A stretch of DNA of 64,000 bases from Mizuhopecten yessoensis (lineage: Eukaryota). Below are positions 7,641-57,890 of the stretch, one piece after another. Numbering within the stretch: the stretch's first letter is position 1; the number at the start of each line of letters is the position of its first letter. The notes below the pieces were generated by a model. That model did no database searches and was not told the DNA's origin. It saw only the letters and a list, made by a program, of their open reading frames with translations. Position numbers and translations under genes: made by a program. Location of the stretch: positions 306,961-370,960 of the forward strand of contig NW_018480051.1 of assembly GCF_002113885.1 (NCBI RefSeq), read 5' to 3'.

Positions 7641-8930
7641 CATGTGACCAGTTAACAGTCGTAGGGTAGCAAACACCAGTTTATCATGGGACCAGTTAAC
7701 AGTCGTAGGGTAGCAAACACTAGTTTATCATGTGACCAGTTAACAGTTGAAGGGTAGCAAACACCAGTTTATCATGTGACCAGTTAACAGTCGTAGGGTA
7801 GCAAACACTAGTTTATCATGTGACCAGTTAACAGTTGAAGGGTAGCAAACACCAGTTTATCATGTGACCAGTTAACAGTCGTAGTGTAGCAAACACCAGT
7901 TTCTCATGTGACCAGTTAACAGTCGTAGGGGAGCAAACACTAGTTTATCATGTGACCAGTTAACAGTTGAGGGGTAGCAAACACCAGTTTATCATGTGAC
8001 CATTTAACAATCGTAGGGTAGCAAACACCAGTTTATCATGTGTCCATTTAACAGTCATAGGGTAGCAACCCCCAGTTTATCATGTGACCATTTAACAGTC
8101 GTAGTGTAGCAAACACCAGGTTATCATGTGACCATTTAACAGTCGTAGGGTAGCAAACACCAGTTTATCATGTGACCATTTAACAGTCGTAGGGTAGCAA
8201 ACACTAGTTTATCATGTGACCATTAACAGTCGTAGGGTAGCAAACACCAGTTTATCATGTGACCAGTTAACAGTCGTAGGGTAGTAAACACCAGTTTATC
8301 ATGTGACCATTTAACAGTCGTAGGGTAGCAAACACCAGTTTATCATGTGACCATTTAACAGTCATAGGGTAGAAAACACCAGTTTATCATGTAACCATTT
8401 AACAGTCGTAGGGTAGCAAACACCAGTTTATCATGTGACCGGTTAACAGTCGTAGGGTAGCAAACACCAGTTTATCATGTTACCATTTAACAGTCATAGG
8501 GTAGCAAACACCAGTTTATCATGTGACCAGTAGACAGTCATAGGACAGAAAAAAACACCAGTTCATCACATGACTACTTAAAAGTCGTAGGGTAACACAC
8601 ACCAGTTTATCATGTGACCAGTCAACAGTTGTAGGGTAACAACTACCAGTTTATCATGTAACCAGTCAACAGTTGTAGTGTTACAAACAACAGTTTATCA
8701 TGTGACCAGTCAACAGTTGTAGGGTAACATACACCAGTTTATCATGTGACCAGTCAACAGTTGTAGGGTAACAAACACCAGTTTATCATGTAATCAGTCA
8801 ACAGTTGTAGGGTAACATACACCAGTTTATCATGTAGCCAGTCAACAGTTGTAGGGTAACATACACCAGTTTATCATGTGACCAGTCAACAGTTGTAGGG
8901 TAGCATACACAAGTTAATCATGTGCCCATT
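7641..8930. repeat. Tandem array, 44-bp unit catgtgaccagttaacagtcgtagggtagcaaacaccagtttat, ~29 copies
   Basis: Period 44 (7641, 7685, ...); no unique spacers. Confidence 0.95.
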
Positions 8931-23745: not shown

Positions 23746-25007
23746 TCGCTTATGTTTTAAAAGAAAAATTGACTTTTGCAACATTAGCAATAGGATCAGA
23801 TTTTGTTGCACTTTACTAAAATACGCATGCAATATATGCAAACCCTGTAGGTAGCACGCAAGTAAATATCAAAATATTAAAATTATTTTTTTCCCATATA
23901 TACTTCATCAATTGAAAGGAAACTGATAAATGTTTTAAACCAATTGCAACTAAAGGCTTTTACCGAGAGAAATCCGTGATATCTCATCACAATAAATTAG
24001 GTGAATTTTTTTTCATTCAAGACACCTTTAAGCGAAGTTTAGTCAATCTAAAAAATTCTATAAAATCGGAAAAATATTTTAAAAGCATGTAAAAAATTCC
24101 TAGTTATTAGTTTATCAAAGAAAAATAAGACATAGCTGACAAACTGCCAAAATATTAGAGACAAAAGTTTTTTAATGAATGAAATATGTGAAATCTGTCA
24201 TAATTTCACCCCAAAACACACACAGTTTCATTTTCTTAGCATTTAAAACTTTCTAAACCTATTTCCTGTTCATTTAAAGCAGGTTACACCTTAACCCAAA
24301 ACACAGTTATTTCTGGAAAAGCCTTCATACTAATAAAAACAGCCCAAAAAAATAACTGAACAAAAATTGTATGTCTATTGGATGTTTTTTCAGCGATAGG
24401 ATTATCTATACATTGTGGTCTAACCCTTAAAACTGTTTAAACTGTACAGGAGCAATTTTTTATGTCATTATAGGGATTTGAAAAAAATTATATTATGTTG
24501 CAATTGGAAAAGGTGGACTTTTACCACATACAAAATAATCTAACCCTTTCAAATACCAGAACAAATAACAGATTTGTTTTTTGTATTTTGAAAATAGATT
24601 ATCAACACTTCCTAACCCTCATCACAAAGTTATCATATTAGTCAATAAACATCATGTTAAATTTAATTGAAATTGCAACATAACATATTTTCAGACATCC
24701 ATCACTCATTAAAAAACTCGAAAATTTCGAACTTTACCAGAGGGTTACAATTGGCAAAACTAATGTTAAAAAAATGACCAAAAGGGCAGCAAAATTCATT
24801 TCTTGAAAATAACTCGAAAAAAAACAACCACATACGCGTCAAGAGCAATGGACGTTATGTTGACATTATGTTGCAATTCGATGATCTTATGTTGCATTTG
24901 GGAAATTTGGCAAAACTTATGTTGCATAAAGGCCAACGAACTGTCAACATAGACGTCCCGGTTCTAACCCCAAACCTAAACCCTAACCCAAACCCTAACC
25001 CTAACTT

Positions 25008-25940: not shown

Positions 25941-28900
25941 TAGACTAGTCAGCCTACGGTTTGACCCGCACCTAATTCCAACAAAGACCATTCTTGTTGG
26001 ATTGCACTCAGAATATATGTAATTAAAACATACGAAAAGTCTAGAAAAATCTAAATAGGGGAACATATTGGATTTTCCGATTAAAGTGTGCAAAAATATG
26101 TTGATAATATATTGCGCGTATGTGTAGCCGTAGGTGCAAAGGGAGATAAATCCTACCAGCAAGCACGTTTGTTTATATTCTGTGAGCAGACTTATTTATG
26201 ACGACTTGACAGAAAGCTGTTGTAAATATGGTGAGTGGTGACAGACATTGAAATATAATGATCACTTACACTGTATATATACATGTAACATGATATAAAA
26301 ATGTTATTGTGTATGCTGAGTGTACGTGTTTGACTTGGTTGGAAAGTGTTGTCTGCTCGAGTCCCGAATCGTAAAACCGTGCCGTACAACAGGTTCATAA
26401 ACACTGAAATTTTACCAAACTAAGTGATGTCAGGGTTCAAAACAATTATTATACCAGAGTTCGATTTAATTTTAACCGTGTAGAAACGGTTATTTGATTA
26501 AAATTATTTTTTGAATGACTGGACCAGTGTATATTCCGTACGAAAAATAAAACTATGGAACCCTATAGTTGCCGTACACACTGGTTTGATCCGGTCTACG
26601 ACATACATAATGTAGATGGTAATTAAATGTACTTAACAGTTTGTTGTGCAGGTATACACGTCATTGCAATTATAAGTGACATTTAAACACATACAAATGA
26701 CATTGCTTATTCGCTTATTGACTTAGTCTTTTTATGGGAGCATGGGGGGGGGCTGTAAGTTCGACACCACGAATTATATATATATAAGGGTCCTGACGGT
26801 ATTTAATTGGACAGACGCTTGAGATACCGTCAAAAGCAATATAATACGATACGGAATGGTTTGTTTTTTGTTTTTGTTTACTATTTACTATTTATGGAAG
26901 ACAGGACATTTTCCCAAAAAATAGTGCGAATACGTTACTTAAAAAACCCATTATAGACCGAACTTACCCAGCTCTAAAGATCTCCCTGTCCACTTAAGTT
27001 TGCAAGCACCATCATTCCAAAAAAATAGATAAGGGGATAGGGGGGTGGGGGGTTGGGGGTCTACATACGATCAAATGGCCCATCCCCAATCCGATATTGT
27101 CAAACTGCTTTTACCTGCAATCTGTATAATAGAACATATTATCAATATTGTGTTTTATTATTTGTTTCATAATCATACAACTTCTGTTTTATTTAATTTT
27201 ATTTATATTATCTTGTTTTTATATCTTTTGTATTATAATTTTTATTATGTTCTTTTTGATATGATTTTGTGGAAAATGTAAACAAGTAACCGTCGTGTAA
27301 ACCAGACGTCTATGGTCTTCGGACTTCCAGAATGATCAGTGTTGCCAACAAAGGTATGGTAGGTGTGTATTTTTATATTTTATTTTTACACCTTTCTTTT
27401 TGCTTTTTGTTTCTTATAATTACATTTTACTTCCAATGTAACCGTTTTCTCTTTACCTCTATTAGTTTCATTTGCTATATATGTGATATACATTCCACAT
27501 TACCACCACGCAGACACTAATGGTGGTGATGTTTTTATTGCAGGAAATATGAGCCGCTGTGCAATTTGCAAAGTGCCTGTCAGAGACGGGGAATCTACAG
27601 TTACCCTTCGAGAAAAAGGCAGCAATGGTATCAACAAAGCCAGCAAGGCACGTGACAATTCCAACGTCAATACATCTGCTGGCGATGTGGTGCACACAGA
27701 GTGTAGGCGTATATACTGCAATGCGAACATTATAAAGCGGGATGCTGGGCTATTGGAAGCTAGGGATACAGACGACCCTTCTTGCCATCGCTCTTTACGC
27801 TCCACCAATACAGACCACCAAACACGATTCTGCGACATATGCATTTTATGTGGAAAGCCTGCAAAGACCTCTGATAAGAAGAGAGGGATCGATGTCTATG
27901 CCGTGCGGACAATGAGGTTCCAGGAGACTTTGGTACAAGCCTTTGATGACCGGAAAAATGATCAATGGGCACAGGAAGTAAAGGCACGTTTGGAGTTCGT
28001 TCGTGATCTCCCCGCTGCCGATGCGGTTTACCACCAGCTATGCAATGTGAACTTCCGTACCAACTACCAGATCCCGTTGCTTTTCACAAACGAAAAACCT
28101 AAACGACGCAAGTCATCTGGAAGACCAACAAGCGACCTTCACGAGTCCGGATTCCAACGGGTACTACAGTTCCTAAGCGAGCATGCCGAAGACCAGATCA
28201 CCATTGCAGTCCTTGTTGATCACATGAAAGGCTGTTGCGGAGAAGAGGCATACAGTCCAACACATATGAAGAGGAAACTTGTAAAACATTTCGGCTCTGA
28301 CATTATCATCACGGAAATAAACGGAAAACCCAACATTATAACGTTTAAAGCTACCGCATCTCACATACTTAGTGACTTTTATCAGCGACCTCAGAATCAA
28401 GACCCAGAGGCTGAAAAAAGAAGTATTATCGAAACAGCAGCGAAGTTGATAAAACGGGATATTAAGTCTATGGATACTTCGAAAGTTGTGTACCCATCAT
28501 CGTCAGAGATATCGTCTGGTGAAAAGAACATTGAATACCTTCCTGCTAGTGTACAGATGTTGTTGCGGTTGCTGTTCTGTGACCTGGACGCACAGGTTAA
28601 GATCGCATCAATTGGACAGGCCATAGTCCAAGCAACACGTCCAAGAGTCCTTATCGCCCCGCTCCAATTAGGTCTTGGCATTCAAATGCATCATCAATTC
28701 GCCTCGAAATTCCTAGTGGATACATTGCATCGACTTGGCTTTTGTGTATCCTATACTGAGGTACAAAAGTTTGAAACCAGTGCGGCTGCATCACAGGGAA
28801 CTGATATCCACGGAATCACACCGGAGCACACCATCCAGTACGTTGCGGACAATGTTGACCATAACCTGAGGACATTGGATGGCCACAACACTTTCCACGG

Positions 28901-31775
28901 AATGGGGATCATTGCTGGTGTCACACCAGCTGTATCACGCCAACGACCTGTTCCGAGGATATCCGTAACAATGGATGAAGTAACTGCGTTGGCGAAGATT
29001 AACATAGACTTCTTCAAACTTCACACTAATCCACTCGAAGCGTTGGTGTTTGAGAAGATTCATGCGGTTCCGAGGCAGGACGCTACCTGGAAACTTGACT
29101 TGCTTTCCAAAATCGCATGGACTCTACGGTCCCATAATGGGTGGTCGGCGATGATGCACGCGGTACAGGATGGCGATTTTCCGGGAAAATCGTCAGTTGT
29201 CTTTCTGCCAATGATCGACATGGACCCCAGCGATATGTCATGCATATACTCGACTCTACAATTCGTAAGCAAGGAAGCCAGACGGCACGGTGCTCATCCC
29301 ATCCTGACATTTGAAGGTAAATGCAGACAAGGCTCGGGACGTCGGGAACAAAATCTTGAAATCTATGGAAGGTCGGAATGTTGCGGAACATGTCTTTAAA
29401 AGAAGTGAGCAGGCAGTTACCCTTAGTACCAAATCAACAATTAAAGTAGACGGTGAAACAATCCACGTTGACCCTCAGCTACTTTTTCAAAGACTTATTG
29501 CCGCAGCAAACCGACTTGATGAGGACGCCTCCCATATCTTTGGCTATGAACTGAGCAGTTACCCGTCGTCTTTGTTCGATTCATCTGGACTTCCACGACC
29601 TGCACAGAAACCAGCACTCGCTGATGCCATATGGGGATTGGATGAGTGAGTGTCATTCCACGCCACCACGTGCACAAGTACATTTCGTACTTGACGGCGG
29701 GTCGCTGCTCCATCGCATTCCTTGGACAAGAGGGTCGATATTCTCCGATATTTGTCAGAAGTACGTGGAGTACGTGATTCGAAACTACAATCATCCCACA
29801 GTAGTGTTCGATGGATACTCGGCTGGTCCGTCTACAAAGGACATAACCCACGTACGACGAACAGGAGGAGCCATTGGTGCAAAGGTCGCCTTTACAGAGA
29901 ACATGCCTTTCAGGTCAAAGAAAGAACTCTTCCTTGCCAATGCCGAAAACAAACAAAACTTCCTAAACATGTTGAGCGAAAAACTAGAACTTAGTGGATG
30001 CCGGACAGTTCACGCGATAGGCGATGCCGATGTATTAATCGTGCAAACAGCTGTGGAGAGCGCCCGTGACATCGCTACAGTGTTGATAGGTGAGGACACG
30101 GATCTTCTTGTGTTGTTGCTGTTCCATTCTGATCTAGACGCCAATGACATTTTCTTCCAATCTGTACAATCAGGAACTAAGAAAATGAAGATATGGGACA
30201 TCAACAAAACGAAGAAAATCCTTGGACCCAGCACGTGTGCCCTCATGCCATTTGTACATGCCATTACAGGATGTGACACCACGTCTCGAATCTTTGGCAT
30301 CGGAAAAGGAGCCCCATTGAAAAAGGTGCAAGGTGACTCTTACTTCCAAGAACTGGCTGGTGTGTTTTGTAGGAAGGCGTCGCACGAGGACGTTGTAGCA
30401 GCAGGGGAAAAAGTAATTGTAGCACTATACAACGGCGAGCACACCGACGGACTGGACACACTTCGGTACAAGAAATTCTCCAACAAAGTCATGTTGAGCA
30501 CAACTTGTGTACAGGTGCATACATTGCCACCGACAACTGCTGCTGCTGCTAATCACAGCAAACGAGTCTATCTGCAGGTACAGCAGTGGATACGACCAGC
30601 CGAGCATTTGTCACCGTGTGAATGGGGATGGTATATCGCCAATGATAGACTGCTTCCTATGAGGACCCACCTACCACCAGCACCGGAACTGCTTTTAAAA
30701 GTTATCCGGTGCAATTGTAAAACAAACTGCGACTCAAAGCGATGCAGCTGTAGAAAGCATGGATTGGAATGTACCCCATGTTGTGGTGAATGCAAGGGTG
30801 TCAGTTGTTCGAACGGCCAAATCCTTATTGTGGAAAGTGACTTGAAAGACGAATCGTGATAACAAACTCGTCTGAGCTAGTAGATAATGTGTCGTGTCAT
30901 AAACTTTGTGAACTACGAACAGACTAATACATGTATGCTGGATGACGTTTTCTAATAATACCGTAACAACATAACGTTTTAGTTGTCCCACTCGTCAAAG
31001 CGATGCAGATGTATATGTTTAGGAATGAGCAACATGTTGTGGCAAATGGTCGTCAGGTTTTCTATAAGTCGATCATACCATGAAGACACTTGCAATAATA
31101 AAACACATAAAACACATATAAGACGTTGATAGATGGATAGCTTTTCCAAAAATGATATATAACACTACATTATGTTAACAGATATCAGACAACCGGGGCG
31201 ATCTCTATGGAAATTCAAAATTTACCCTGTCTGAAAATATTTGCATTGAAAATAACCAAACCTAATTTGTAAGACATCGATTGTCCATGTCTTTTATTAG
31301 ATTAGTACATATGATTAACCCGTTGTTGTTGCAACAAAAAACATGTGTGCAATGTACATATTTGAAATTATTGAGAAAATATCGAAATATTTTTCATTTT
31401 TTGGGGTAAATTTTAGGGGGTATGGGTGTTTTGTGTCATTTTAACAAGATTTATAATTGGTAAAACATCTTAAACTTACATTCAAAATAACAATATAGGT
31501 CTAAGCTTTCCATAAATACTACTATAACAACTCATCATGTCTTAAACGTAACTCTGTCGTATACAAAATGTTTATGAACATGGACAATTAAATGGCACAA
31601 AAAGTGGGGCATAGTGTTAAGTAAGACGTAATTTTCAAGACTTTGCCCTATTTAGATTTTTCTAGACTTTTGATATGTTATCTTCTGTATAAATAAGTGC
31701 AAGAAAAACACAAAACAAACTTTGTTGGAATTATGTATGGGTTGAGCCCTTTTTTGTCGTAGGCTGACTGGTCTA
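25941..31775 (+). mobile_element. AcademX DNA transposon with both ends, 5835 bp
   Basis: TIR TAGAC(T/C)AGTCAGCCTACG plus patchy inverted similarity over ~130 bp (aaaagtctagaaaaatctaaataggg); 3-bp TSD TTA at 25938-25940 and 31776-31778. Confidence 0.9.
27483..30859 (+). pseudogene. Academ transposase + XPG-like nuclease + Cys8 (CXC) protein, with an internal deletion near 29312 and a frameshift near 29640
   Basis: ADNVDHNLRTLDGHNTFHGMG; LDGGSLLH, VVFDGY, DADVLI, GEDTDLLVLL, HAITGCDTTS; C-terminal CNCKTNCDSKRCSCRKHGLECTPCCGEC. Confidence 0.85.
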
Positions 31776-45995: not shown

Positions 45996-46775
45996 TCTTA
46001 TATGAAAACGGATGTTTATGTTCATCTTCAACTGAAGTTTGATTTTTTTTTTAGAAGAAGAATTAAGAAAAAAATCAAAAAAAAAAATCTTAGAACATGC
46101 CACATTAATAACACCGTAACTTTTCAGTTCAAAGCATCCCATCCACAGCTTCCATGACAAACTCTACTACTGCTTGCTAAAATTATATTTCAAATATGTA
46201 CAAACAATATTTAAATCTCATTTAACAGTAATCAACATAGCGGTTAAATCGTCGAAAGGGCGAGCAATCCATCTATCCATCATGAATATTATATATACAC
46301 AACATGTTGTCGTACCTCTTATTCGTTCACAAAATGTCTAATGGTGAGCAATAAATCAATCCATCATGAATACATATCCCGAAAAGATGGCGGCCTTTAC
46401 ATCGCATTATCTACAAAATAACTCCGCCTTCCTTAAGTCACGTAACATTTCTCATGACATTGACAAGTTTGTAAGTGCGCACTTTCGCAAAAACAACTAA
46501 CCCTAACCCTAACCCTATTGTTTAACATCAACGGAATCTATAATGTCATATACAAGCATCTTATATAAAATTCCTTAACTACTTAAATTCAAACCACAAT
46601 AACAGTTTAAAAATTATGTCCTCTCATTTGACCGCTTACAGTTGTTAAAGTGTATTATTACACAGATTTTTTTTTCAATAATACACATTAAAACGTTAAA
46701 ATATATTTCGACCAACCGAATATTCAAGATAATATCAACTGGTACAACAGCTCTAAAATGTCCAAACCAATTACT

Positions 46776-47640
46776 GATGAAATGATATAATTAAATGCAT
46801 ATTATTAAATGAGAATTCATGAGAGTAAAAATAAATTTTCTTTCCTTGCAGTTCATTACCATATGTACAGATGTTGACGATGACTTCATATCATCTCAAG
46901 TTCCAATAGCAGAAACACAAATCCAGAACGGACTGCAGCCAAGTCTGGAAAATACGCCAATAGAGAAAAATACCGTAAAAGACAACGATGATGACACAAA
47001 AGACGGTGATGGAAATGAAGATGAGGTAAATTTTAATTTTAACCAATGAAAATTCATCCATATATATCTACAAATAAATCAATCTCATAAACAGATGAAA
47101 TGATATAATTAAATGCATATTTTTAAATGAGAATTCATGAGAGTAAAATAAATTTTCTTTGCTTGCAGTTCATTACCGTATATACAGATGTTGACGATGA
47201 CTTCATATCATCTCAAGTTCCAATAGCAGAAACACAACTCCAGAACTGACTGCAGCCAAGTCTGGAAAATACGCCAATAGAGAAAAATACCGTAAAAGAC
47301 AACGATGATGACACAAGAGACGGTGATGGAAATGAAGATGAGGTAAATTTTAATTTTAACCAATGAAAATTCATCCATATATATCTACAAATAAATCAAT
47401 CTCATAAACAGATGAAATGATATAATTAAATGCATATTATTAAATGAGAATTCATGAGGGTAAAAATATTTTTTCTTTCCTTGCAGTTCATTACCGTATA
47501 AACAGATGTTGACGATGACTTCATAACATCTCAAGTTCCAATAGCAGAAACACAACTCCAGAACTGACTGCAGCCAAGTCTGGAAAATACGCCAATAGAG
47601 AAAAATACCGTAAAGGACAACGATGATGAAGATGATGGTA
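46776..47640 (+). repeat. Three tandem ~317-bp units, each containing an acidic exon
   Basis: Units start at 46776, 47094 and 47411; exon DVDDDFISSQVPIAETQ..DGNEDE|gt; copies 2 and 3 share a TGA. Confidence 0.9.
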
Positions 47641-47719
47641 GTTATACATAATGGACATTGTGTCCACTAGAATAATGTCTTCGGGTTATTAGTTTAGTAT
47701 AAGTTAGCACTAATTTAGC

Positions 47720-48095
47720 ATATCCAGGGTTAGAATTGGAAGGTGAGGGTAAGATTCAAGTTTGCGTAAGATGTAACGATTTTAGCATAGATGGTACTTT
47801 TGCAGCAGAAGCAGGGTGGTACTTTTGCAGCATAAGCAGGGTAAGGGTTAGGATTAAGGTTAGAATTGTGCTATCTGGTAACTTTCCTATGCTGTATTGG
47901 TAACATAAAGCTATTTTTGTTACATGAGGTTAGGGTTAGATCCAAACCAGCATAAGATTACTTCATTATGCTGTATTAGTAACATTAAGCTATTTTGTTA
48001 CTCAGGGTAGCGGGTTAGGGTTAGATCCAAATTAGCATAGATGGTACATTGTTAGCATAGTTTGTTACACATTTAGCATATCGTATTTAGGATTA
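47720..48095. repeat. Second-type TTAGGG array interleaved with AGCATA/TATGCT motifs (intronic)
   Basis: gggttagaat, ggttagggttagatccaaa twice, repeated agcata; also (CTAACC)3 at 46497-46517. Confidence 0.75.
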
Positions 48096-49120
48096 GAACT
48101 CGACTATATTTGTTCGTTCTTATAATCAAACAGGGTCGATGAAAGATGAGGATAAGGAGGAGCGCAATGACCAGCATGAGCAGGTGTGCAATGACCAGGT
48201 GGATGAGGTGTGTAATTACCAGGATGACGAGGAGTGTAATAACCAATATGATGAGGAGTGCAAAGACCAGGATTAGCAAGAGTGTTATGACCAGGACGAT
48301 AAGGAGTCCAACGACCAAGATGATGAGAAATGTAATGAAAAGGATGAGGATTTGTTCAATGACCAGGATAACAAGGAGTGCAAAAACCAGGAGGCGAAAT
48401 ATGTTGGTGACCAACCCCTATTTTATGACAGTTGGGACTCTGATATCATCCCACCTACACCGCCGAAAGCAAGGGTTAGCGTTAGCCAAAAGCAAACAAG
48501 AAATCAATTGCAAACAGGACAACGGAATAGATAGATTGCGACATATGCAGAAAAGCTCAGAGTAACATTTGGCGACACATGCGCGGAGTTCACCATTTAA
48601 AAGTGGGAAAAGCAAAGGTTTTGAAGACAAAGAGTGGATATATCGTCTATGTGTGTTCAATCAAGGGGTGCGACAAACCAACAGCAAGACTTAGAGACCA
48701 CTTCATAAACGAGCACGGCATTCAGAAAGAAGGAAGAAGGAGCCTGAAGACCTTTGCATCTACTTTGCCGGATGACTACTGTGGAGACGATAAACCGACT
48801 GAAAGACAGAGAAGCAGGAAGAAGAGAGATATATGGCCACCGACAAACCAGCCATCGTGTATGGAGATTTTAGTGGATTCATCTGTTGAAGTTACTGCAT
48901 CCAGACCTACACAGGAGAAAGTGATGTCAAAACCTGCTCAAAAGGATGATATGACCGAAGCTGCCATGAAAGAAAGAGAGACGCAGAATACAGCGATTTC
49001 AAAACCTGCTCAAAAGGATAATACGACTGCTACTGCCATGAAAGAAGGAGAGAGCAAAGAGTCGGAAGAATCAGACGAAACAGACGACGAGTCAAACGGT
49101 GAGGTGAAAGACGTAAAAGA

Positions 49121-49660
49121 AACAAGAGGCCCAAGGGCCTTAGCGTTCACCTAAGTTATATCATAGGTACTGGTAGCTTTATTTTATTGTTCAGATGTGA
49201 TGTGGAAATCAGCATGTAAACTAAGTGAAATACGATACTAATGTCATGTCATCAAAGAATAAGAATTCGAAAATATTGGTAAATGTCCCTTTGGGGCTCC
49301 GCCCTAGCCCCTGGAGATCGGGCAGGAATCCTAATTTTACAATGTAATACCCTCATTCATCAAAGATAATTCTCACCAAGTAAAAATAATTTCCTGCAGA
49401 AAGATGTCAAAATATACCCAAAAGTGTTATTTCCCTATATAAACTATAGTAAACTTTACCCCCAGTTTTGAAATATTGGTTAATTTTCCCTTAAGGGCCC
49501 CGCCCTGGCTCCAGGGGTACGAATCGCAATTTAACAATTTTGTAGCCTCATCTAACAAGGATGATTCTGACTAAGTTTGAAAAAATCCATCCACTGGTTC
49601 TTGAGAAGAAGTTGAAAATGTAAAAAGTTTACGCACGATGGACGACGGACGGAAAGCGAT
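49121..49660 (-). mobile_element. HINE-like insertion in the recombinase-like gene
   Basis: aacaagaggcccaagggcc end, GC-rich satellite monomers, gagaagaagttgaaaatgtaaaaagtttac..gacgacggacg. Confidence 0.7.
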
Positions 49661-50289
49661 AATACGAGTCGATGAACTGCGTGCGTTTTGTGGTTATCTG
49701 CAAAGAGGTGAACATCTGAAGTCTGCAAGAACCGCATTTCAACACTCCCGCCAGGTCTGTGTTATAATTCTGTTCATGGTATTGATCGTTGCCAAGAACC
49801 TCATTGGAAACGCAAGTAAAGTTCACACAGCAATGTCCCGGACCAAGAGAGGTGTACGCAACCTGAAGAAGAAGGCTTCGCAACGCAGTACTGAACTGGT
49901 TGTCGAAGACATTTACAGGATGCCATCAACAGAAGAAGTGGCTACATTATTTACATCAACTATCGTGAAAGGCATAGATGATCAGCTCAAGGATGACTTC
50001 TTCACAGTTCCTGATAAGAACATCTTCAAGAACATGATAGGTTATTTCATTATCAGGGTCCACCTTTCAAATGGCGAGAGGTGCGGAGCTATACTTTGTA
50101 TCACAGAGAAAGTCGTTAAGTCTCCAATAGTTCGGCCTGACGGAGTAATACAACAGGTAGCCAACTATTTTGGTTACGGTTAGATCATAATTCAACCGCA
50201 TTAGTTTCGTTGCCACAGCAATAACATTGAGGCTTCCGATTGGTCGAAATTTAGATATTGTTCGATTTTGATGAAAATTGGTTTCATTG

Positions 50290-51210
50290 CGTTTATACAA
50301 AATTGGTTTCTTTTTACACAAGGATGCTCCACACCAAATATGGACCAAATCCTTTCATTCCTTCAGAAGAAGGATTTTAACGAATTTGCTATGTTTCCCC
50401 TTTTGGGCCCCGTCCCTCAGCCCCCAGGGGGGCCAGACTTACCATTTATACAAATTTTGTTCCCCCCTTCCACAAGGATGCCTCTGACCAAATATGGACC
50501 AAATTCTTTCATTCCTACAGAAGAAGAAGGATTTAAAAAAAAATTTGTTATATTCCCCCTATTGGGCCCCGCCTTTCAAGCCCCTGTGGGGGCCAGGACC
50601 ACTGTTTATACAAAATTGGTTCCCCTTAACACAAGGATGCTCCACACCAAATATGGACAAAATCCTTTTATTCCTACAGAAGAAGATGGATTTTAAAGAA
50701 TAGTTTGCTATGTTTCCCCTATTTGGCCCGGCCTCTCAAGCCCCTGGGGGCCACACCCACGGTTTATACAAAATTGGTTCCTCTTCACCCAAGGATGCCT
50801 CATACCAGATATGGACCAAATCCTTTCATTCCTACAGAAAAAGGATTTTAAAGATTTGTTTGTTTGTTTGTTTGATTTTGTTTAACGTCCTATTAACAGC
50901 TAAGGTCATTTAAGGACGGCCTCCCCTGTGTGCAAGATGAATAATTTGCTATGTTTCCCCTATTTGGCCCGGCCTCTCAGGCCCCTGGGGGCCACCCCCA
51001 CGGTTAATACAAAATTGGTTCCCCTTCACCCAAGGATGCCTCAGACCACATATGAAACAAATCCTTTCATTCCTACAGAAGAAGGATTTTAGAGAATTTG
51101 CTATATTCCCCCTATTTGGCCCCGCCCCTCAGCCTCTAAAGAGAGGCCAGACCCACCCTTTATACAACATTTGTTCCCTTTTCCCCGAAGGATGCTTCTG
51201 ACCAAATTGA
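50290..51210. repeat. ~155-bp HINE-core-type satellite, ~6 copies, with a SINE fragment at 50855-50939
   Basis: tttatacaaa...caaggatgc...ccaaatatggaccaaatcctttcattcctacagaag at ~50292, 50445, 50605 and 50763. Confidence 0.85.
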
Positions 51211-51285
51211 TTCTTTTTTCAAACGCAATCATGCTATTTAACAAAGATTCATAATTTTTGTACATGTATATATTTTTACCCCCAG

Positions 51286-54200
51286 GGGAATCATTAAAGA
51301 CCAGCTTTTTGACAAGATGGTTGCTCTGACTGCTACAACTTGGATGGCCGGCTTGCAGTTAGGTTCAAATGCAACAACACTCCATCACTGGTCTGAAATT
51401 ATAGATGGGAGATACAGCCATGAAAAGTTACAAGAATTTTTTGACAATGATGACAGATATGCTGATGCCAAAGGGAGAATACTCGCCAGAGGTTTTGATC
51501 ATAGATGATATTAGTATGCTGTCAGCAAAAGTGTTCCAGATGGTCGAGTTTGTGTGTCGACAGGTGAAACAGACAAATCGTGTTTTTGGTGGTATTCAGG
51601 TAATTATTTTGATTAGTACAAAATATAGACTAATCACACAGACTGAAGGACAGAAAGGTATATGGAACAGACATACAGACAGGTTGATAGAGTAAACAGA
51701 CAGAAGGGCAAACAGGTTGATAGAGTAAACAGATGGAAGGACAGACATGTATATAGAACAGACAGACTAGACAGACATTATAACACTTAAATGTGGAGCC
51801 ACATAACTATGTAATTTGCTGTATCTTGCCCTGAAGTCTTATATACTTTTTATTGGAAATATAATGCACACTTATAATATTAATTGTAAAAATTCAAACA
51901 TTGATTAAATTCTTATATGTAATATTTATCCTTTTTTTTAAAGTTGATTGCATCTGGAGACTTTAAGCAGCTGCCACCAGTTCCAAATTACAGACTTCAG
52001 GATGATGGAAAGTACTGCTTTGAAAGCCACATATTTGACAAGACATTTCCTCACCATGTGAACTTAATCAAAGTAAGTTATATTTATATATTTTTATATA
52101 TAATTCTACTCTTGCTTTGATAGACATGGGCATAAATGTTTGTCTGGTCCACCATTCACTTTCCTACATTTGCAAATTTGTTCATTCATCCATGAAGGGA
52201 GATTCAGAGATTTCAAATGTTGTATTCATGTTGTATATGGATATTTGTGGCAGAGTAGTAGCCTAAATGAAAGGGATAATTCATTCCTGATTTTGGTGTC
52301 AATATTGAAATGCAAATTATAATATATATAATTTCAGTGAATTTCCAAAGAGCAAATATGTTAAGAGAATGAGTAATGTCCTTGTATGAAATGAAAATAA
52401 ATGTACATTTACCTTTTTACTTAGGTTATGCGACAACACGAGGATGATTTGATATCAGCAGTGAGCGAGCTGTGTAATTGAGCACCTTCATTCACAGTAG
52501 ACATTACAGTTAATGAAAACTCTTAACAGGCCGATACAAAACATAAATGAAGGTGACGAAGTGATTCGACTATATGGAAGCAATTTTGATGCTAGCTTTA
52601 TCAATCACATATGCTAGATGAGATGGAAGGAGAATCACAGGTGTACAAGGCCCAAGATGAAGGTTTGTACATTTAAATTTTGTGAGACTATGTGCTGTAT
52701 ATTGAATTACACCATAAAGTTGTAACCTTTAGATGGTCATCAGTCAAGGTCGCACTTGATCACTTAACTGGTACATCAAATGGCCAACTGGTAACTTTAG
52801 AATTCAAGATGGCCACCATGCATGGCATCTGTTTGGCTGTGAAAATAACAGTTATAACCGAAGTTCTAACTTTGTTGATATTTTGTGGAAGTGATACATG
52901 GTGATGTGTATTTTATATAACACAGACTTACGCTTGTAAATGTCAGGATTCAAGTTGGCGGCTATGGCCACTGAATGGCACTGATTGCCTGATACATTAA
53001 CATCAATAGTAGAGTGGGGTATTCATTGGCTTACAGTTCTGGTTTTCTTTATATGATCTTGAACAGTACATTTTATGCAAATAATAGTATATATACATTA
53101 TTGTATGAGAAAGATTTTAAGATTAATTTTGTATGCAATATGATCAATTCTGGTGAACAATGTAGAAGAAAGTCATTACTATATTCAATAACATAATATT
53201 TAATGTATATAACAAGAGGCCAAAGTGGACTGTATCAATTAACCATGTATTTGATTGTGGTTTAAGAAAAGTATCATTTTACTTGCAGGTGCCTTGAAGT
53301 TGTTACGAGGAAACACTGTGCCAAAAACATTGATTTTGAAGCAGGGAGCACCATTTATCCTCATAAAAAAACATTGTAAATGGACTGTACAATGGAATGC
53401 GAGGAAATGTCCACAAACTCTCCAAGGGACAGCTGCCTGTAGTAAATTTTAGTGGTAGACTTTTAACATTGTCAGTTGTGAAGTTTGAAACATATGATAC
53501 TCGGCAACAAAAAACATTAGCGTCGAGATCACAGATACCACTCACACTTGCATTTGCCTTGACAGTGCATAGGGCTCAGGGACAGACCATCAGGAATGTT
53601 GAGGTCGATTGTTATTCGTTAGTTGCACCAGGACAAATGGGAGTGGCCATAGGCAGAGCTGAGAGTAAGGCATGATTATGCATAAGGAACTATACCCAGA
53701 ATATGTTTATGATTTTTATTCTACACCATTTCAAGATCCAAAGGATGAATTGTCTTGCTATAAAGCAAACCTTACTACTTCAGTTGAAAATGTGTCACAA
53801 CACTACCAGGAACCTCAGCAAGGTTCATCTCGAGCAACTGATGAAGACAATGAATCAACAACATTTTTGACACCAGATGAAGCTGAATTTTCAGACATTC
53901 AAATTGTTGATTCTCCATGGTCTACGCAAGAGTTTCTGAGTGACTTCTCCAACTTCACATCACTCCTGTCGTCATTAGAACCTAACAACATGGAGACACA
54001 CATACAATTATGTACTCAGTTGTTGAAAGCATCACGAAAAGTCAACTGAAGACTTCATAAAACTGGACTATAGCGTATGAGAAACTAAACAAGTTTTTGA
54101 TCAGTGACATACACATCACTAAAGTGAAAAACCTCTTCAGAGTGGAGACGTTGTCAAAGCAGCAGAACAACTCTTCGACAAAGTTGGCCTTTTGGTTAAT

Positions 54201-57200
54201 GGACAAAACTATTGAATCCAGATCTCAGAAAGTTCTGGAAGAAAAAGAAGAAAAAATTGACCATCAGGATGAGTCTCCAAGTGTAAGTTCTGCTGGCAAG
54301 GCCAAAATCAGATACATAGCAGGTGCACGTGTCCACAAAATTGCTAAACGATTGCAAGAATCAGTGTCCAGAAAGTTAAGCCTGAGTAGACAAACAGAGC
54401 TAAATGATGCGACAGCTTGACTACAAGAAGCAGATGATAATGAAACAAATGAGTTTTTTCAGGCACAGCTGACAAATGAGAAATAAGTGACGTGATCGCG
54501 ACGATGGTGGCACGGAGCTCCACAAAGAATTTGATTTTTCTAATAATTATGTAGAGTTTCAAGAGTGTATTTTTGTTAATCAAGCACATCAAGGTGTATA
54601 TTTGCTGAGCGTCATAGAAGAACGAAGATTTGTTGCCCCGTTTGTGTGTATTTTACAAACAGAGAACGTTAAGTGACTGTACAGTGTAGTGAGTACTGTT
54701 TTCATTGTTTCGCACATTCAGATACAAATGGGTTCTAGTATGTGTTATGGCCGAAGAAAATGTATTAACGCCAAGCAATAACTTAAAAAGGAAACTCACT
54801 GAATCTATCAGTCCTGACTCTTTGAATTTTGAATCCCCTGTACCGATACGCAGACGATCTTCACTCCCCGACATACGATCTGAGGTTATCAACATGGCCG
54901 CCATTAGTACAAAAGTGTCTACTCCTATCCAACCAAGAGTGCTTACTAACCAGGGCCAGTTGATAAACCTTTCTCAACTTGTTCATGCTACAATAACTAG
55001 CACTTGTGTTATCGCAGGTCTTGTGCCAAGTCTAGCAACGGCCATTAGTCAACAGATTAGTACAGACATGGCTCCATTCACAGTCAAGATCCAACAGTTA
55101 ACTGATCAAGTAGCGACTGTCTCCAAAGAAAATGCTGAGAATTGCGAAAATGTATTCGATTACGAGATAGGTTACACAAAAAAATGTAAAAGAAGTTTGC
55201 GTGATATTGATATACCTTGTTTTAAAAGAGCTAGAAACCGAGTAAATAATATGTAAAGCATGCACAAGAATCATTGTATGCTAATATTGTAGTATCAGAT
55301 CCTATATCATATTGGAAACTGTTGAGGCGGTTAATTAAATCAGGCGGTAAATCTAATGAAACTTCACCATTAGTTGATCCACAAAATAGTAGAATTGTAT
55401 ATGATGATTTTGAAAAAGCTCCCTTCATCCTAGAACTAATTCTTCCTGTGCTTCCATACAATGGAACCATTCGGAAATAAAAGACGTTTTGGAAGTATTA
55501 ACATTAGGTAAAAGCTCCTGGTACAGATGGTATTAGTCACCATATGTTACGACACACTGCAAAAACTATATGTTAACCTCTTCAAATATTATTTGATATG
55601 TCATTGTCTAAATGTATAAACCAGACTTTGTGGAAGCAAGCTATAATAATGCCCTTGTAATAAAAAGATGATACACATTTACCTTCAAATTACAGACCTA
55701 TATCTTTACTATCAGCTGTAGGAAAAGTTTTTGAACCAGTAATTGTCAAACATATTCACAACTACCTTTTTGAAAACTCACTATTTTGTTCAAGAAAATC
55801 TGGGATTATGTCTAATCATTCCACTGTGCAACAGCTAATCGTAATCTATCAAAATATATGTTTAAATTTTGAGGAAAAGAAACATACTTCTATTATCTTT
55901 TGTGACATATCAAAGGCTTTTGATAGAGTTTGGCATAAGGGTCTGATTGAAAAGCTTAAAAGTGGTTAACTAATTATCTACAGGTCCGACAACAAAAAGT
56001 TTGTATTGGTGAATCATTTTCGAATAGTTAGTTATTAAAAGCTGGGGTATCTCAAGGCTCGGTGTTTGGCCCCGATTTTATTTCTAATCTATGTCAATGA
56101 TATTTCCGAAAATTTAATTAGCGTATCTAGACTTTTTGCTGATGATACTTCTTTAATATTTGGTTCTAACAACTGCAACGAAATGAAATGAGTAATGAAT
56201 CAAGTGCATGGTCTAAGCAATGGTTAGTTAAATAAAAGTTCTAATAAAACAGATGTTCTATTCATCTCAAATATTTAAAAAAAATCAAGATCTGGAGCTA
56301 TTGTTTGGCGACACCATTTTATTTTTCTGAAAACCAAAAGCATTTAGAGGTAACTTTCAGTGCAAATGGTAAATGGGGTGATCATGTCGAAAATATTTAT
56401 AAAAGTTCTTCAAAACGGATAAATGCTTTAAGACAATTAAAATTTCTGGTTAATAGGAAAGTTCTTAGTAAAGTATATACATGTTTCATTCTACCTATAA
56501 TGGAATATGCCTGTGAACTCTGGAGTGGTTTATCTAAATTCCATATTGATTTGTTAGAAAAACTTCAACTCGAAGCAGCTAAAATAGTAACTGGGTTGCC
56601 AGTATATGCAAGTTCTCAATCTTTGTATTTTGAAACGGGATGGAACACTTTGAATACCAGAAGAGAACGAAGAAAGCTAACTTTGTTTTACAAAATGCAC
56701 AATAAACTAACACCATCATATTTTTATACATTACTTCCAGGTTTAGTATGTGATAGAACTCCATATACCCTTAGAAATAACAATAACTATATCATGCATA
56801 ACTATATTCTGTCCAATACTAGATCATCATATTTTCCAGCAACTACAAAAAATTGCAATAACTTGAAACCACTAGAAATCAAACTACAGTTAGTAAATTC
56901 AAAACTGCCATAACTCCGGAACATCATAATACCTTAATATCTTATTAACTAGACTTAGACACAATTGTAGCCAACTGAATTATGATCTCTTTCGTGTGAA
57001 ACTTGTAGAATCTCCTTTTTGTGCCTGTGGTCACCCCTGTGAAAACTCATACCATTATTTTTTTCGAATGTCCAATGAACAGGAACATTAGACATGACAT
57101 GTTAAATAAGTTGAAACCATATCATCATGTGCACATAGAGTTACTATTGTTGAAATGTTGAATTATCAAATGTTAACAATGAGCGAATTTTTGAAATTGT

Positions 57201-57619
57201 TCAGACTTTTATTTATTCAAGTGACCGTTTCTAAACAAAAACATTGTATGAAGGTATATGTATCTAATCTGTCATAATATCTTCTCTCCTAAACCTCTCA
57301 TTCTGCTCTGTAGGTCTATAGAATAATACATAGTGTTACTGGTTCAGCAAATTGTATATATATTTTTTTTCTTTACAAATTTGAATAACTCCGCTGCATG
57401 GCACTTTGATATGTTACCTAGAAGGAACAGGAATGAATAGCTTGTGCCCAATCCATTTTATTATATCAATAAAATATGTTTAAATCAAGCTGACAAATGA
57501 ACATTTCCATTTACACTATCACAACATCCACATCAGATCTGTAATTGACGAAAACAGTGTACTTCTCGAAAAATGGATCGGCTTATTTAGCTCCATTGAT
57601 GATAATGAAATTGAGGATG
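51286..57619 (+). pseudogene. Spliced PIF1-family (SF1B) helicase with long C-terminal extension; exons 51286-51599, 51944-52072, 52425-52663, 53289-54479 + 57501-57619
   Basis: VALTATT..ATTLHHW, LIIDDISML, FGGIQ, SGDFKQLPP, VMRQ, NGMRG, RSQIPLTLAFALTVHRAQGQTI, GQMGVAIGRA. Frameshifts and stops present; the Walker A exon is absent. Confidence 0.85.
54480..57487 (+). mobile_element. CR1-type LINE, internally deleted, with 13-bp TSD
   Basis: TSD agctgacaaatga at 54467-54479 and 57488-57500; ORF1-like start; RT motifs CDISKAFDRVWH, GVSQGS, LFADD; C-terminal CACG..HYFF; tail aataaaatatgtttaaa. Confidence 0.9.
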
Positions 57620-57779
57620 CAATACCTGAAATCAGAAGGTCAAAAGTCAGAAACAAGGGAGGTTAATTCCGTCAAAATGACGTCACACTCAATATACACA
57701 CCTATTGGAAACAGGGGGAGATAATTCAGTCGGTAACACAAAAATTGATGACGTCACACGCAAAAAAACACATGATGAA

Positions 57780-57890
57780 GTGACGTAGATCTACGGACGT
57801 AGGTAAAGGGGGTTGCTAAGCCGCCATCTTGGATCAAAGATGGCGGAATTCCTTAGCAATACCCCCCCTCCCCCCGTAGATCTACGTCAC
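57780..57890. other. Nested GC-rich palindrome/cruciform
   Basis: gtgacgtagatctacgg / ccgtagatctacgtcac outer arms; ttgctaag / cttagcaa and ccgccatctt / aagatggcgg inner arms. Confidence 0.9.

What the first reader, a model, noticed from the sequence alone, without database searches (positions are those of the whole stretch)
46380..50156. Zinc-finger / tyrosine-recombinase-like gene embedded in a second TTAGGG-plus-motif array: candidate autonomous relative
Seen: a YY1-like aagatggcggc at 46384, (CTAACC)3 at 46497 and an intron (47720-48095) where GGTTAG units alternate with AGCATA/TATGCT. This is the same grammar as 19-24 kb with a different partner motif. The spliced product has acidic repeats, two C2H2 fingers, LRAFCGYL..KSARTAFQHSRQV and IRVHLSNGERCGAILCIT. 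Known: YR enzymes have a helical core-binding domain followed by a box-I arginine (..GxRxxE/xI..). Inference: this is the recombinase of a sister subfamily of the 17.7-25 kb element, truncated before HxxR/Tyr by later insertions.
Basis: partly seen in the sequence, partly recalled or inferred. Interest (0 to 1): 0.75.

Follow-up and report, generated by a model that had tools for sequence, protein, structure and literature searches.

The report
Dead telomere-repeat-linked recombinase transposon
This is a broken copy of a jumping gene whose intact relatives encode a DNA cut-and-rejoin enzyme and sit among telomere-type TTAGGG repeats about 14 times more densely than control DNA, each enzyme lineage paired with its own short repeated motif, so the family likely lands in such repeats, but this copy cannot move anything.

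Summary
48134-50156 is a pseudogene of a zinc-finger / tyrosine-recombinase / C-terminal helix-turn-helix protein. It has stops, a frameshift, a 540-bp repeat inserted into one exon and a 48-residue deletion. It ends at a conserved splice donor, and the catalytic exon is missing. An intact paralogue folds like XerH/XerA/Cre; the family pentad is R-K-[T/N]xxR-H-Y.

The genome holds at least 51 such loci or fragments on 30 contigs, in mostly co-oriented clusters. TTAGGG 7-mers are 14-fold denser around them than in controls, and tandem 12-mers occur at 15 of 22 contigs versus 0 of 20 controls. Partner motifs, often phased at 20-21 bp, track recombinase clades (AGCATA for this one).

The 17.7-25 kb element carries a relic of a distant clade. 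The 'YY1 site' and (CTAACC)3 are the end of a separate non-autonomous element. Sixteen homologous loci from other organisms show no TTAGGG excess, though one has a phased array abutting (CT)21.

Best fit: a TTAGGG-associated bivalve branch of microsatellite-targeting CryptonV-like DNA transposons. CryptonV membership was untestable and targeting is inferred.

The parts
46078..46496 (+). Right end of a separate ~1.65-kb non-autonomous element ('family A') that is bounded by (CTAACC)n at both ends elsewhere; contains the aagatggcggc motif (46384); homology breaks at 46078
   Evidence: its last ~90 bp are 77% like an end of the YR-bearing segment on C2695
46497..46517 (+). (CTAACC)3.5 tract at the end of family A; possibly the junction to the recombinase element (inferred)
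   Evidence: contigs of runs X1 and X3 bridge it into the downstream DNA
46852..47637 (+). Three acidic exons (46852-47025, 47169-47342, 47487-47637) in 317-bp exon-intron repeats; exons 2 and 3 carry in-frame stops; run X9 shows fewer repeat units
47638..48133 (+). Intron with GGTTAG plus (T)AGCATA/TATGCT array (47717-48095); the same kind of array lies in the intron before the zinc-finger exon at C76703 and C1928
48134..49119 (+). 5' part of the large exon: acidic repeats (stop at 48274-48276), frameshift near 48530, two C2H2 fingers (50% identical to paralogue over 117 aa), acidic linker
49120..49660 (.). High-copy dispersed repeat inserted into the exon (not an intron of the gene)
49661..50156 (+). 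Tyrosine-recombinase core-binding domain (48 aa missing near 49767) and box I with catalytic Arg at 50079-50081; ends at conserved GT donor 50157
50157..51207 (.). Intron start, then dispersed repeats and a 159-bp satellite; the catalytic exon (K, xxxR, H, Y) expected after this intron is absent
51208..54448 (+). PIF1-helicase gene relic of an unrelated element (86-90% to C5005, which has no YR within the 30 kb fetched); not part of the finding
17629..24975 (+). Related but distant element with ATGTTGCA arrays; carries its own internally deleted YR relic (19868-19927) and C-terminal helical domain (20087-20299, 61% to C1928:90.4k)

Best explanation
46.5-50.2 kb is a dead copy of a zinc-finger / tyrosine-recombinase gene from a multi-clade, likely CryptonV-type DNA transposon family whose copies in this bivalve genome sit among TTAGGG repeats, and whose intact members would likely excise and re-integrate by recombination at short TTAGGG tracts. 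Shown: the protein family, the YR fold and catalytic set of intact paralogues, the lesions in this copy, the TTAGGG enrichment, the clustering with mostly shared orientation, and clade-specific partner motifs, two of which recur at 20-21 bp. Inferred: (a) the fingers and/or the C-terminal three-helix domain bind the phased motif arrays and the hexamer, assembling the recombinase on its own element; (b) excision gives a circle that recombines with a TTAGGG seed, leaving tracts in direct orientation on both sides; (c) the elements carry TTAGGG seeds in their introns and ends, so they serve as landing sites for one another, which would build the co-oriented multi-clade clusters. This copy later gained stops, a frameshift, a repeat insertion and a deletion, and lost its catalytic exon where it now abuts satellite DNA and an unrelated PIF1 relic.
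For: Homology: E 1.8e-16 to an intact paralogue; 50% over the fingers and 26% over the YR part; clade support 100/100. Fold: the AlphaFold model of paralogue P0004 matches XerH (E 6e-6), XerA, Cre and lambda integrase. Catalytic columns in 122 proteins: R 120, K 121, T/N at the HxxR His 111, R 121, H 122, Y 120. TTAGGG 7-mers: 236 in 336,736 bp around YR loci on 22 contigs (0.70/kb) versus 9 in 181,342 bp of 20 controls (0.05/kb) and 4 in 128,550 bp of 13 PIF1-flank stretches; 12-mers at 15 of 22 versus 0 of 20, Fisher p 1.9e-6. Neighbours within 30 kb are co-oriented in 19 of 21 pairs, and in 8 of the 9 pairs I can assign to different clades. Four motif labels on 11 rows need the minimum 3 changes on the tree; 0 of 200 shuffles are as low. 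23 of 37 short AGCATA spacings are 20-21 bp. Family A and the ATGTTGCA element have (CTAACC)n on both sides. At C5399 an ATGTTGCA-element end joins an AGCATA array at a CTAACCC. No consistent RT beside intact ORFs. Named homologues are cnidarian and oyster; CryptonV is described as cnidarian and microsatellite-targeting (PMC8869645, passages).
Against: No orthologous empty site was seen. The one filled/empty comparison uses an 89%-identical paralogous transposase, which has no TTAGGG at either site; this fits the element bringing the tract, or telomerase adding it, better than a pre-existing target. 7 of 22 YR contigs have no tandem 12-mer, 4 of them from one clade. 16 homologous loci from metagenome contigs have only 3 7-mers in 85,105 bp and no 12-mer, though 10 of the 16 are under 5 kb. 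The ends of this copy could not be defined. Motif labels were assigned by me from the nearest array, after seeing the first tree, and 22 of 33 rows were unlabelled; AGCATA-type arrays also lie near the C76443:11.5k gene of another clade. TTCGTTAC motifs show no 21-bp phasing. Many co-oriented pairs are tandem duplicates or pieces of one gene. Controls were hand-picked round coordinates, not random draws. The C-terminal domain is not closer to telomere-binding Myb domains than to homeodomains or FF domains. No CryptonV sequence was available to compare.
Confidence: 0.72

Rival explanations
1. Same transposon family, but TTAGGG is cargo rather than target. The hexamers are binding sites carried inside and at the ends of the elements (or added by telomerase at breaks made during transposition); integration uses little or no target sequence, and clusters arise from local hopping and tandem duplication.
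For: The paralogous empty sites lack any telomeric repeat, and the junction is host GT joined in register to TAGGG. Most tracts are internal and interleaved with partner motifs. Several clusters are near-identical duplicates.
Against: Different clades sit side by side in the same orientation, and one element end joins another family's array exactly at CTAACCC. Family A copies are head-to-tail with tracts between them. A homologue in another organism has its phased array abutting a different microsatellite, (CT)21.
Confidence: 0.3
2. One reading: this gene is the autonomous recombinase partner, or a close sister, of the 17.7-25 kb element.
For: Same protein family, same array grammar, same strand, 27 kb apart.
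Against: Stops, frameshift, insertion, deletion and no catalytic exon; contigs of run X1 cross the stop, frameshift, insertion junction and deletion with 0-1 letter differences. The 17.7-25 kb element has its own relic closest to C1928:89.7-90.6k; the clades are far apart, AU p 0.038.
Confidence: 0.04
3. A decayed domesticated host gene (like the Crypton-derived DUF3504 genes), or a YR retrotransposon of DIRS/TATE type that lost its RT.
For: Multi-exon structure. TATE is a YR element inserted in telomeric hexamers (PMC6681497, passages).
Against: At least 51 loci or fragments, most broken, with non-autonomous relatives. Catalytic residues are kept, unlike DUF3504 (PMC3212892 abstract). The RT/RNase H hits among 64 nearby ORFs are heterogeneous, including one with GIY-YIG and one beside DUF1759. 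Introns argue against an RNA intermediate (inference).
Confidence: 0.08

Closest known systems
CryptonV DNA transposons (Kapitonov and Jurka, Repbase Reports 2012; not seen, known here only from passages of PMC8869645 and the table in PMC5753468)
   Same: YR-encoding DNA transposon of animals; homologues named from cnidarians (Actinostola, Paramuricea, Clytia, Dendronephthya, Hydractinia, Sanderia) and an oyster; association with simple repeats; one homologue next to (CT)21.
   Different: Here the repeat is the telomeric hexamer, it occurs inside introns as well as at ends, each clade has its own partner motif, and clades cluster co-oriented. None of this is in the passages I could read. Sequence membership could not be tested.
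CryptonA / CryptonI (Kojima and Jurka 2011, PMC3212892, abstract and sections 5 and 8 read)
   Same: Animal YR DNA transposons with non-autonomous derivatives and no terminal inverted repeats.
   Different: Those have no C-terminal domain and no terminal repeats; this family has N-terminal C2H2-like fingers (72 of 122 proteins) and a C-terminal three-helix domain (68 of 122), with no DUF3504 hit in the Pfam scans.
TATE of Leishmania (PMC6681497, passages read)
   Same: YR element in tandem clusters at telomeric hexamer repeats; the closest functional analogue.
   Different: TATE is a retrotransposon of kinetoplastids with RT and RNase H; no consistent RT here, and 15 of 22 YR contig regions lie over 50 kb from scaffold ends.
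XerH / XerA / Cre / lambda integrase
   Same: Core-binding plus catalytic fold; R, K, R, H, Y positions.
   Different: HxxR histidine replaced by T or N; extra finger and helix-turn-helix domains; about 12% identity.

Membership tests
Tyrosine recombinase superfamily | Core-binding plus catalytic fold | tested here: met
   Paralogue P0004 model versus PDB: XerH E 6e-6, XerA, Cre, lambda Int; 44 matches at E<=0.001. The window fragment itself was not folded; it is tied to the family.
Tyrosine recombinase superfamily | Catalytic R-K-HxxR-H/W-Y in intact family members | tested here: met
   R, K, R, H, Y in 120-122 of 122; the His of HxxR is T (96) or N (15), aligned to XerA HVLR
Autonomous element (this copy) | Open frame with all catalytic residues | tested here: not met
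   Stops, frameshift, insertion, 48-aa deletion; only the first Arg present
CryptonV | YR sequence groups with Repbase CryptonV | not testable with these tools
   No CryptonV sequence in any library on hand; only 3 papers hold the word; one review was not held
CryptonV | YR DNA transposon without reverse transcriptase | tested here: met
   64 of 91 candidate ORFs from 28 loci scanned; RT/RNase H hits are scattered and of mixed types
CryptonV | Specific insertion into microsatellites | tested here: inconclusive
   Strong TTAGGG association and one (CT)21 junction, but no orthologous empty site, and paralogous empty sites lack the repeat
CryptonV | Present in cnidarians | tested here: met
   Of 20 representatives looked up, 9 clusters carry a species name: 8 cnidarian, 1 oyster
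CryptonA/I | No C-terminal domain; DUF3504-type YR | tested here: not met
   C-terminal domain in 68 of 122, modelled at pLDDT 89; Pfam gives weak Phage_integrase, not DUF3504
Cryptons in general | Short (4-6 bp) direct repeats at both ends | tested here: inconclusive
   Ends of this copy undefined; related elements have direct (CTAACC)n tracts on both sides; the 17-bp repeat of the 17.7-25 kb element differs at the left end of C2188 and C798
DIRS / Ngaro / VIPER / TATE YR retrotransposons | RT and RNase H in the element | tested here: not met
   element ends were not defined for most copies
Telomere-binding Myb (telobox) domain | C-terminal domain closest to TRF/Tbf1-type Myb | tested here: inconclusive
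   Best Z 6.3 (FF domain, rmsd 3.2, 65 aligned), 6.2 (DUX4 homeodomain), 5.8 (ARR1); telomere-repeat binders 4j19 Z 4.9 and TBF1 Z 4.8; no Foldseek hit at E<=0.001. One Atlas cluster at score 0.94 has Myb PF00249 in 40% of members.

The most novel reading that the evidence does not exclude
An undescribed radiation of animal DNA transposons whose non-canonical tyrosine recombinases integrate into the telomeric hexamer. Each clade reads its own phased motif array, and all carry TTAGGG landing pads that make them insert into one another and spread interstitial telomeric repeats. Some arrays (C76270, C4453, C5309, C2188), whose TTAGGG strand points to the scaffold end, would be true chromosome-end insertions, a DNA-transposon counterpart of TATE.
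Probability: 0.3. Interest if true: 0.75.

Novelty: new variant of a known kind. Interest (0 to 1): 0.5.

Why it matters
The copy itself is a fossil. The family matters for three reasons. Sequence-specific DNA transposons are rare in eukaryotes, and CryptonV is barely described in searchable papers (3 mentions). A YR transposon tied to TTAGGG would offer a source for interstitial telomeric repeats in molluscs and a possible route into chromosome ends. The clade-to-motif pairing, with intact single-ORF paralogues (786 aa at C5399:2086.9-2089.2k), gives a directly testable natural series of protein-DNA specificities in a recombinase that lacks the usual HxxR histidine.

Tried and rejected
Pfam on the window fragment gave no integrase hit; paralogues give only sub-threshold Phage_integrase. 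The PDB sequence search with the family profile gave XerA at only E 0.06. The word-indexed protein searches each found only 2 proteins; the profile search found 3395 at E<=0.001.

PIF1 as part of the element was rejected: no YR near any of the 6 PIF1 regions fetched, no PIF1 in the YR regions, and no TTAGGG excess there. My recollection that KolobokH carries PIF1 was wrong (RecQ; PMC9587614 passages).

The 17-bp terminal repeat as a family feature was not supported. A telomere-only location was rejected: 15 of 22 regions are over 50 kb from scaffold ends. The exact pattern for the family A end found 3 sites. The viral-contig scan found no relative. A telobox identity for the C-terminal domain was not resolved.

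Expression: no RNA holder listed. About 19% of one RNA run gave no reads on the unique exons, and three RNA runs gave 0, 1 and 0 reads on the intact C76703 paralogue; tissue is unknown, so this is no test. In run X1 the C76703 gene has contig depth 17-41 (mostly 33-41) against 10-15 for this locus, with a step at its (CTAACC)n tract; this hints at near-identical extra copies, but the tool warns that depth is no copy number.

Literature searches found no description of a TTAGGG-associated Crypton. Repbase Reports and subscription papers were not searchable, and no supplements were read. Five look-ups of earlier findings gave nothing that bears on this.
Full report
Setting. The window is G000:C76724:306961-370960. 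A source names two paralogous proteins as uncharacterised proteins of the scallop Mizuhopecten yessoensis.

Observation. All quoted motifs are present. The intron array is far above chance: 7 GGTTAG/CTAACC and 9 AGCATA/TATGCT in 386 bp, with 0 of 1000 shuffles reaching either. The left landmarks, however, belong to another element. 46078-46517 matches several contigs, at 90% for full-length matches, and the match ends at a (CTAACC)n tract in the C4537, C76270, C5309, C4453 and C5526 copies that reach that far. On C76270 this family A is a 1.65-kb non-coding unit with tracts on both sides, in tandem, and its last 90 bp are 77% like an end of a YR-bearing segment on C2695.

The gene. Three acidic exons in 317-bp repeats lead through the array intron into one large exon. 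In paralogues the fingers, core-binding domain and box I are a single open frame (432 aa at C76703). Here that exon is split by a very high-copy repeat at 49120-49660, has a stop at 48274, a frameshift near 48530 and a 48-residue gap. It ends at a GT donor at the codon where C76703 and both C1928 copies of this clade have their intron. The following catalytic exon is not found on this contig. Instead come repeats, a 159-bp satellite and, from 51208, a PIF1 relic whose 86-90% paralogue has no YR nearby. Contigs of run X1 cross these lesions with 0-1 letter differences, and X3 and X9 also cover the locus; one of these runs could be the source sample.

The protein family. Genome searches gave 8, 37 and 62 matches. 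In the regions fetched around them a profile found 51 loci or fragments on 30 contigs, a lower bound. A profile search of 1.84 billion representatives gave 3395 proteins at E<=0.001. Of 20 looked up, 9 clusters have species names, 8 cnidarian and 1 oyster. The model of intact P0004 (mean pLDDT 78) matches XerH, XerA, Cre and lambda integrase. R, K, R, H and Y are kept in 120-122 of 122 proteins, and the HxxR histidine is T in 96 and N in 15. 72 of 122 have a C2H2-like pattern and 68 of 122 the C-terminal domain. That domain folds as a homeodomain/Myb/FF-like helical bundle with no preference for telomere binders.

TTAGGG. Within 5 kb of YR loci on 22 contigs (window and 7 tiny contigs left out), 7-mers occur at 0.70/kb against 0.05/kb in 20 hand-picked controls and 0.03/kb in 13 PIF1-flank stretches. 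Tandem 12-mers occur at 15 of 22 against 0 of 20. Seven contigs have none, four of them from one clade. 15 of 22 regions are over 50 kb from scaffold ends. Neighbours are co-oriented in 19 of 21 pairs; many are duplicates, but 8 of 9 cross-clade pairs agree. Sixteen homologous loci from metagenome contigs show no excess (3 7-mers in 85 kb; 10 loci under 5 kb), but one has ten 21-bp units ending at (CT)21. The link to the telomeric hexamer therefore looks lineage-specific within a wider simple-repeat-associated family.

Partner motifs. The nearest arrays are TAGCATA for the window clade (window, C76703, two C1928 copies), ATGTTGCA or AAGTTGCA for C1928:89.7k and C3762:50.8k, CAACATAA for C4063 and C5536, and TTCGTTAC for C5399, C1177 and C76443:19k. 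On an IQ-TREE of 33 of 41 rows (8 near-duplicates dropped) these four labels on 11 rows need the minimum three changes; 0 of 200 shuffles do as well. Labels were set after the first tree, kin share labels, and AGCATA-type arrays also lie near one gene of another clade, so this shows clustering, not co-evolution. AGCATA spacings are 20-21 bp in 23 of 37 cases up to 60 bp, and ATGTTGCA spacings peak at 21 bp; TTCGTTAC shows no such phasing.

Relation to 17.7-25 kb. That element has (CTAACC)n at both ends in the window and on C2188. It carries its own deleted recombinase relic, 60-61% identical to C1928:89.7-90.6k. The window gene sits in a separate 7-row clade (100/100); forcing it together with that clade gives AU p 0.038, a marginal rejection for a group named after the first tree. 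It is a distant relative and could not have been the element's driver in its present state.

Mechanism. Shown: fold and catalytic set in paralogues, lesions, enrichment, clustering, motif-clade match, flanking tracts, and one element end joined to another family's array at CTAACCC. Inferred from general YR chemistry and the Crypton model (PMC13465315, passages): excision as a circle and re-entry by recombination at a short directional core, here likely within TTAGGG, with the phased arrays as binding sites. Against this, the only filled/empty comparison is with a paralogue and shows no prior repeat, with host GT joined in register to TAGGG, so cargo or telomerase addition remains open.

Comparison. 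It works like a microsatellite-targeting CryptonV (PMC8869645, passages; the Repbase report was not seen) and, in its target, like TATE (PMC6681497, passages). It fails CryptonA/I on the C-terminal domain (PMC3212892, abstract and two sections) and the YR retrotransposons on RT (64 of 91 ORFs scanned). CryptonV membership could not be tested by sequence. Eight literature searches found no TTAGGG-associated Crypton, but Repbase entries for oysters or fish may already hold it. Also seen: PMC5753468, PMC3706591 and PMC9587614 as passages only; no supplements were read.

Verdict. A real but dead recombinase gene. Interest 0.5, carried by the family rather than by this copy.

Noticed in passing
L135:397-427 and 1460-1520 (G000:C76270:7548-7578 and 8612-8670): A (CTAACC)5 tract sits inside a transposase reading frame, and a family A array begins 1 kb further on; an 89%-identical paralogue (C1955) has no telomeric repeat at either place. 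It could be an excision footprint or a telomerase-type insertion.
   Followed up: partly
G000:C76270, C4453, C5309, C2188, C3553: In these five scaffolds the TTAGGG strand of element-associated or pure tracts near a scaffold end points toward that end, as at a chromosome end. Post hoc and small; assembly breaks at arrays could contribute.
   Followed up: partly
window 51208-54448; G000:C5005:266.9-273.5k: The PIF1 relic's close paralogue lies head-to-head with broken ORFs that look like a P/THAP-type transposase (resemblance recalled, not tested), suggesting a transposase-plus-PIF1 element. Window 54448-57488 is a later insertion with LINE-like RT frames.
   Followed up: partly
window 17674-17690 and 24942-24958: The 17-bp direct repeat at both ends of the 17.7-25 kb element equals the right-end sequence of the C5399 copy, whereas other left ends carry a variant; a CAACA..ACGTCC motif is present at all ends seen. 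It is a candidate recombinase core site.
   Followed up: partly
G000:C5399:2073.9-2084.3k: A 94-96% identical copy of the window's 21.7-25 kb segment, interrupted by other DNA, sits just downstream of an intact 786-aa YR ORF of another clade with its own TTCGTTAC arrays.
   Followed up: partly
L278:6978-7237; L281:7373-7491: Homologous YR genes in metagenome contigs have 21-bp-period arrays downstream; in L278 ten copies end directly at (CT)21.
   Followed up: partly
L010:9233-9250; window 48473: Short telomeric tracts occur inside coding exons of family members (read as PNPNPN in the C76703 second gene); in the C2150 paralogue of the window exon the site at 48473 is a perfect two-unit tract.
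   Followed up: no
window 57821-57846: An inverted pair of YY1-like motifs within a longer imperfect palindrome (about 57770-57890), at the start of what may be a Harbinger-like element (type recalled).
   Followed up: no
window 27420-30859: Two long open frames (659 and 434 aa) with no Pfam hit; they look like an uncharacterised transposon gene.
   Followed up: no
Atlas rows: Some chordate clusters near the paralogue carry a SET domain, suggesting YR-SET fusions in the wider family.
   Followed up: no
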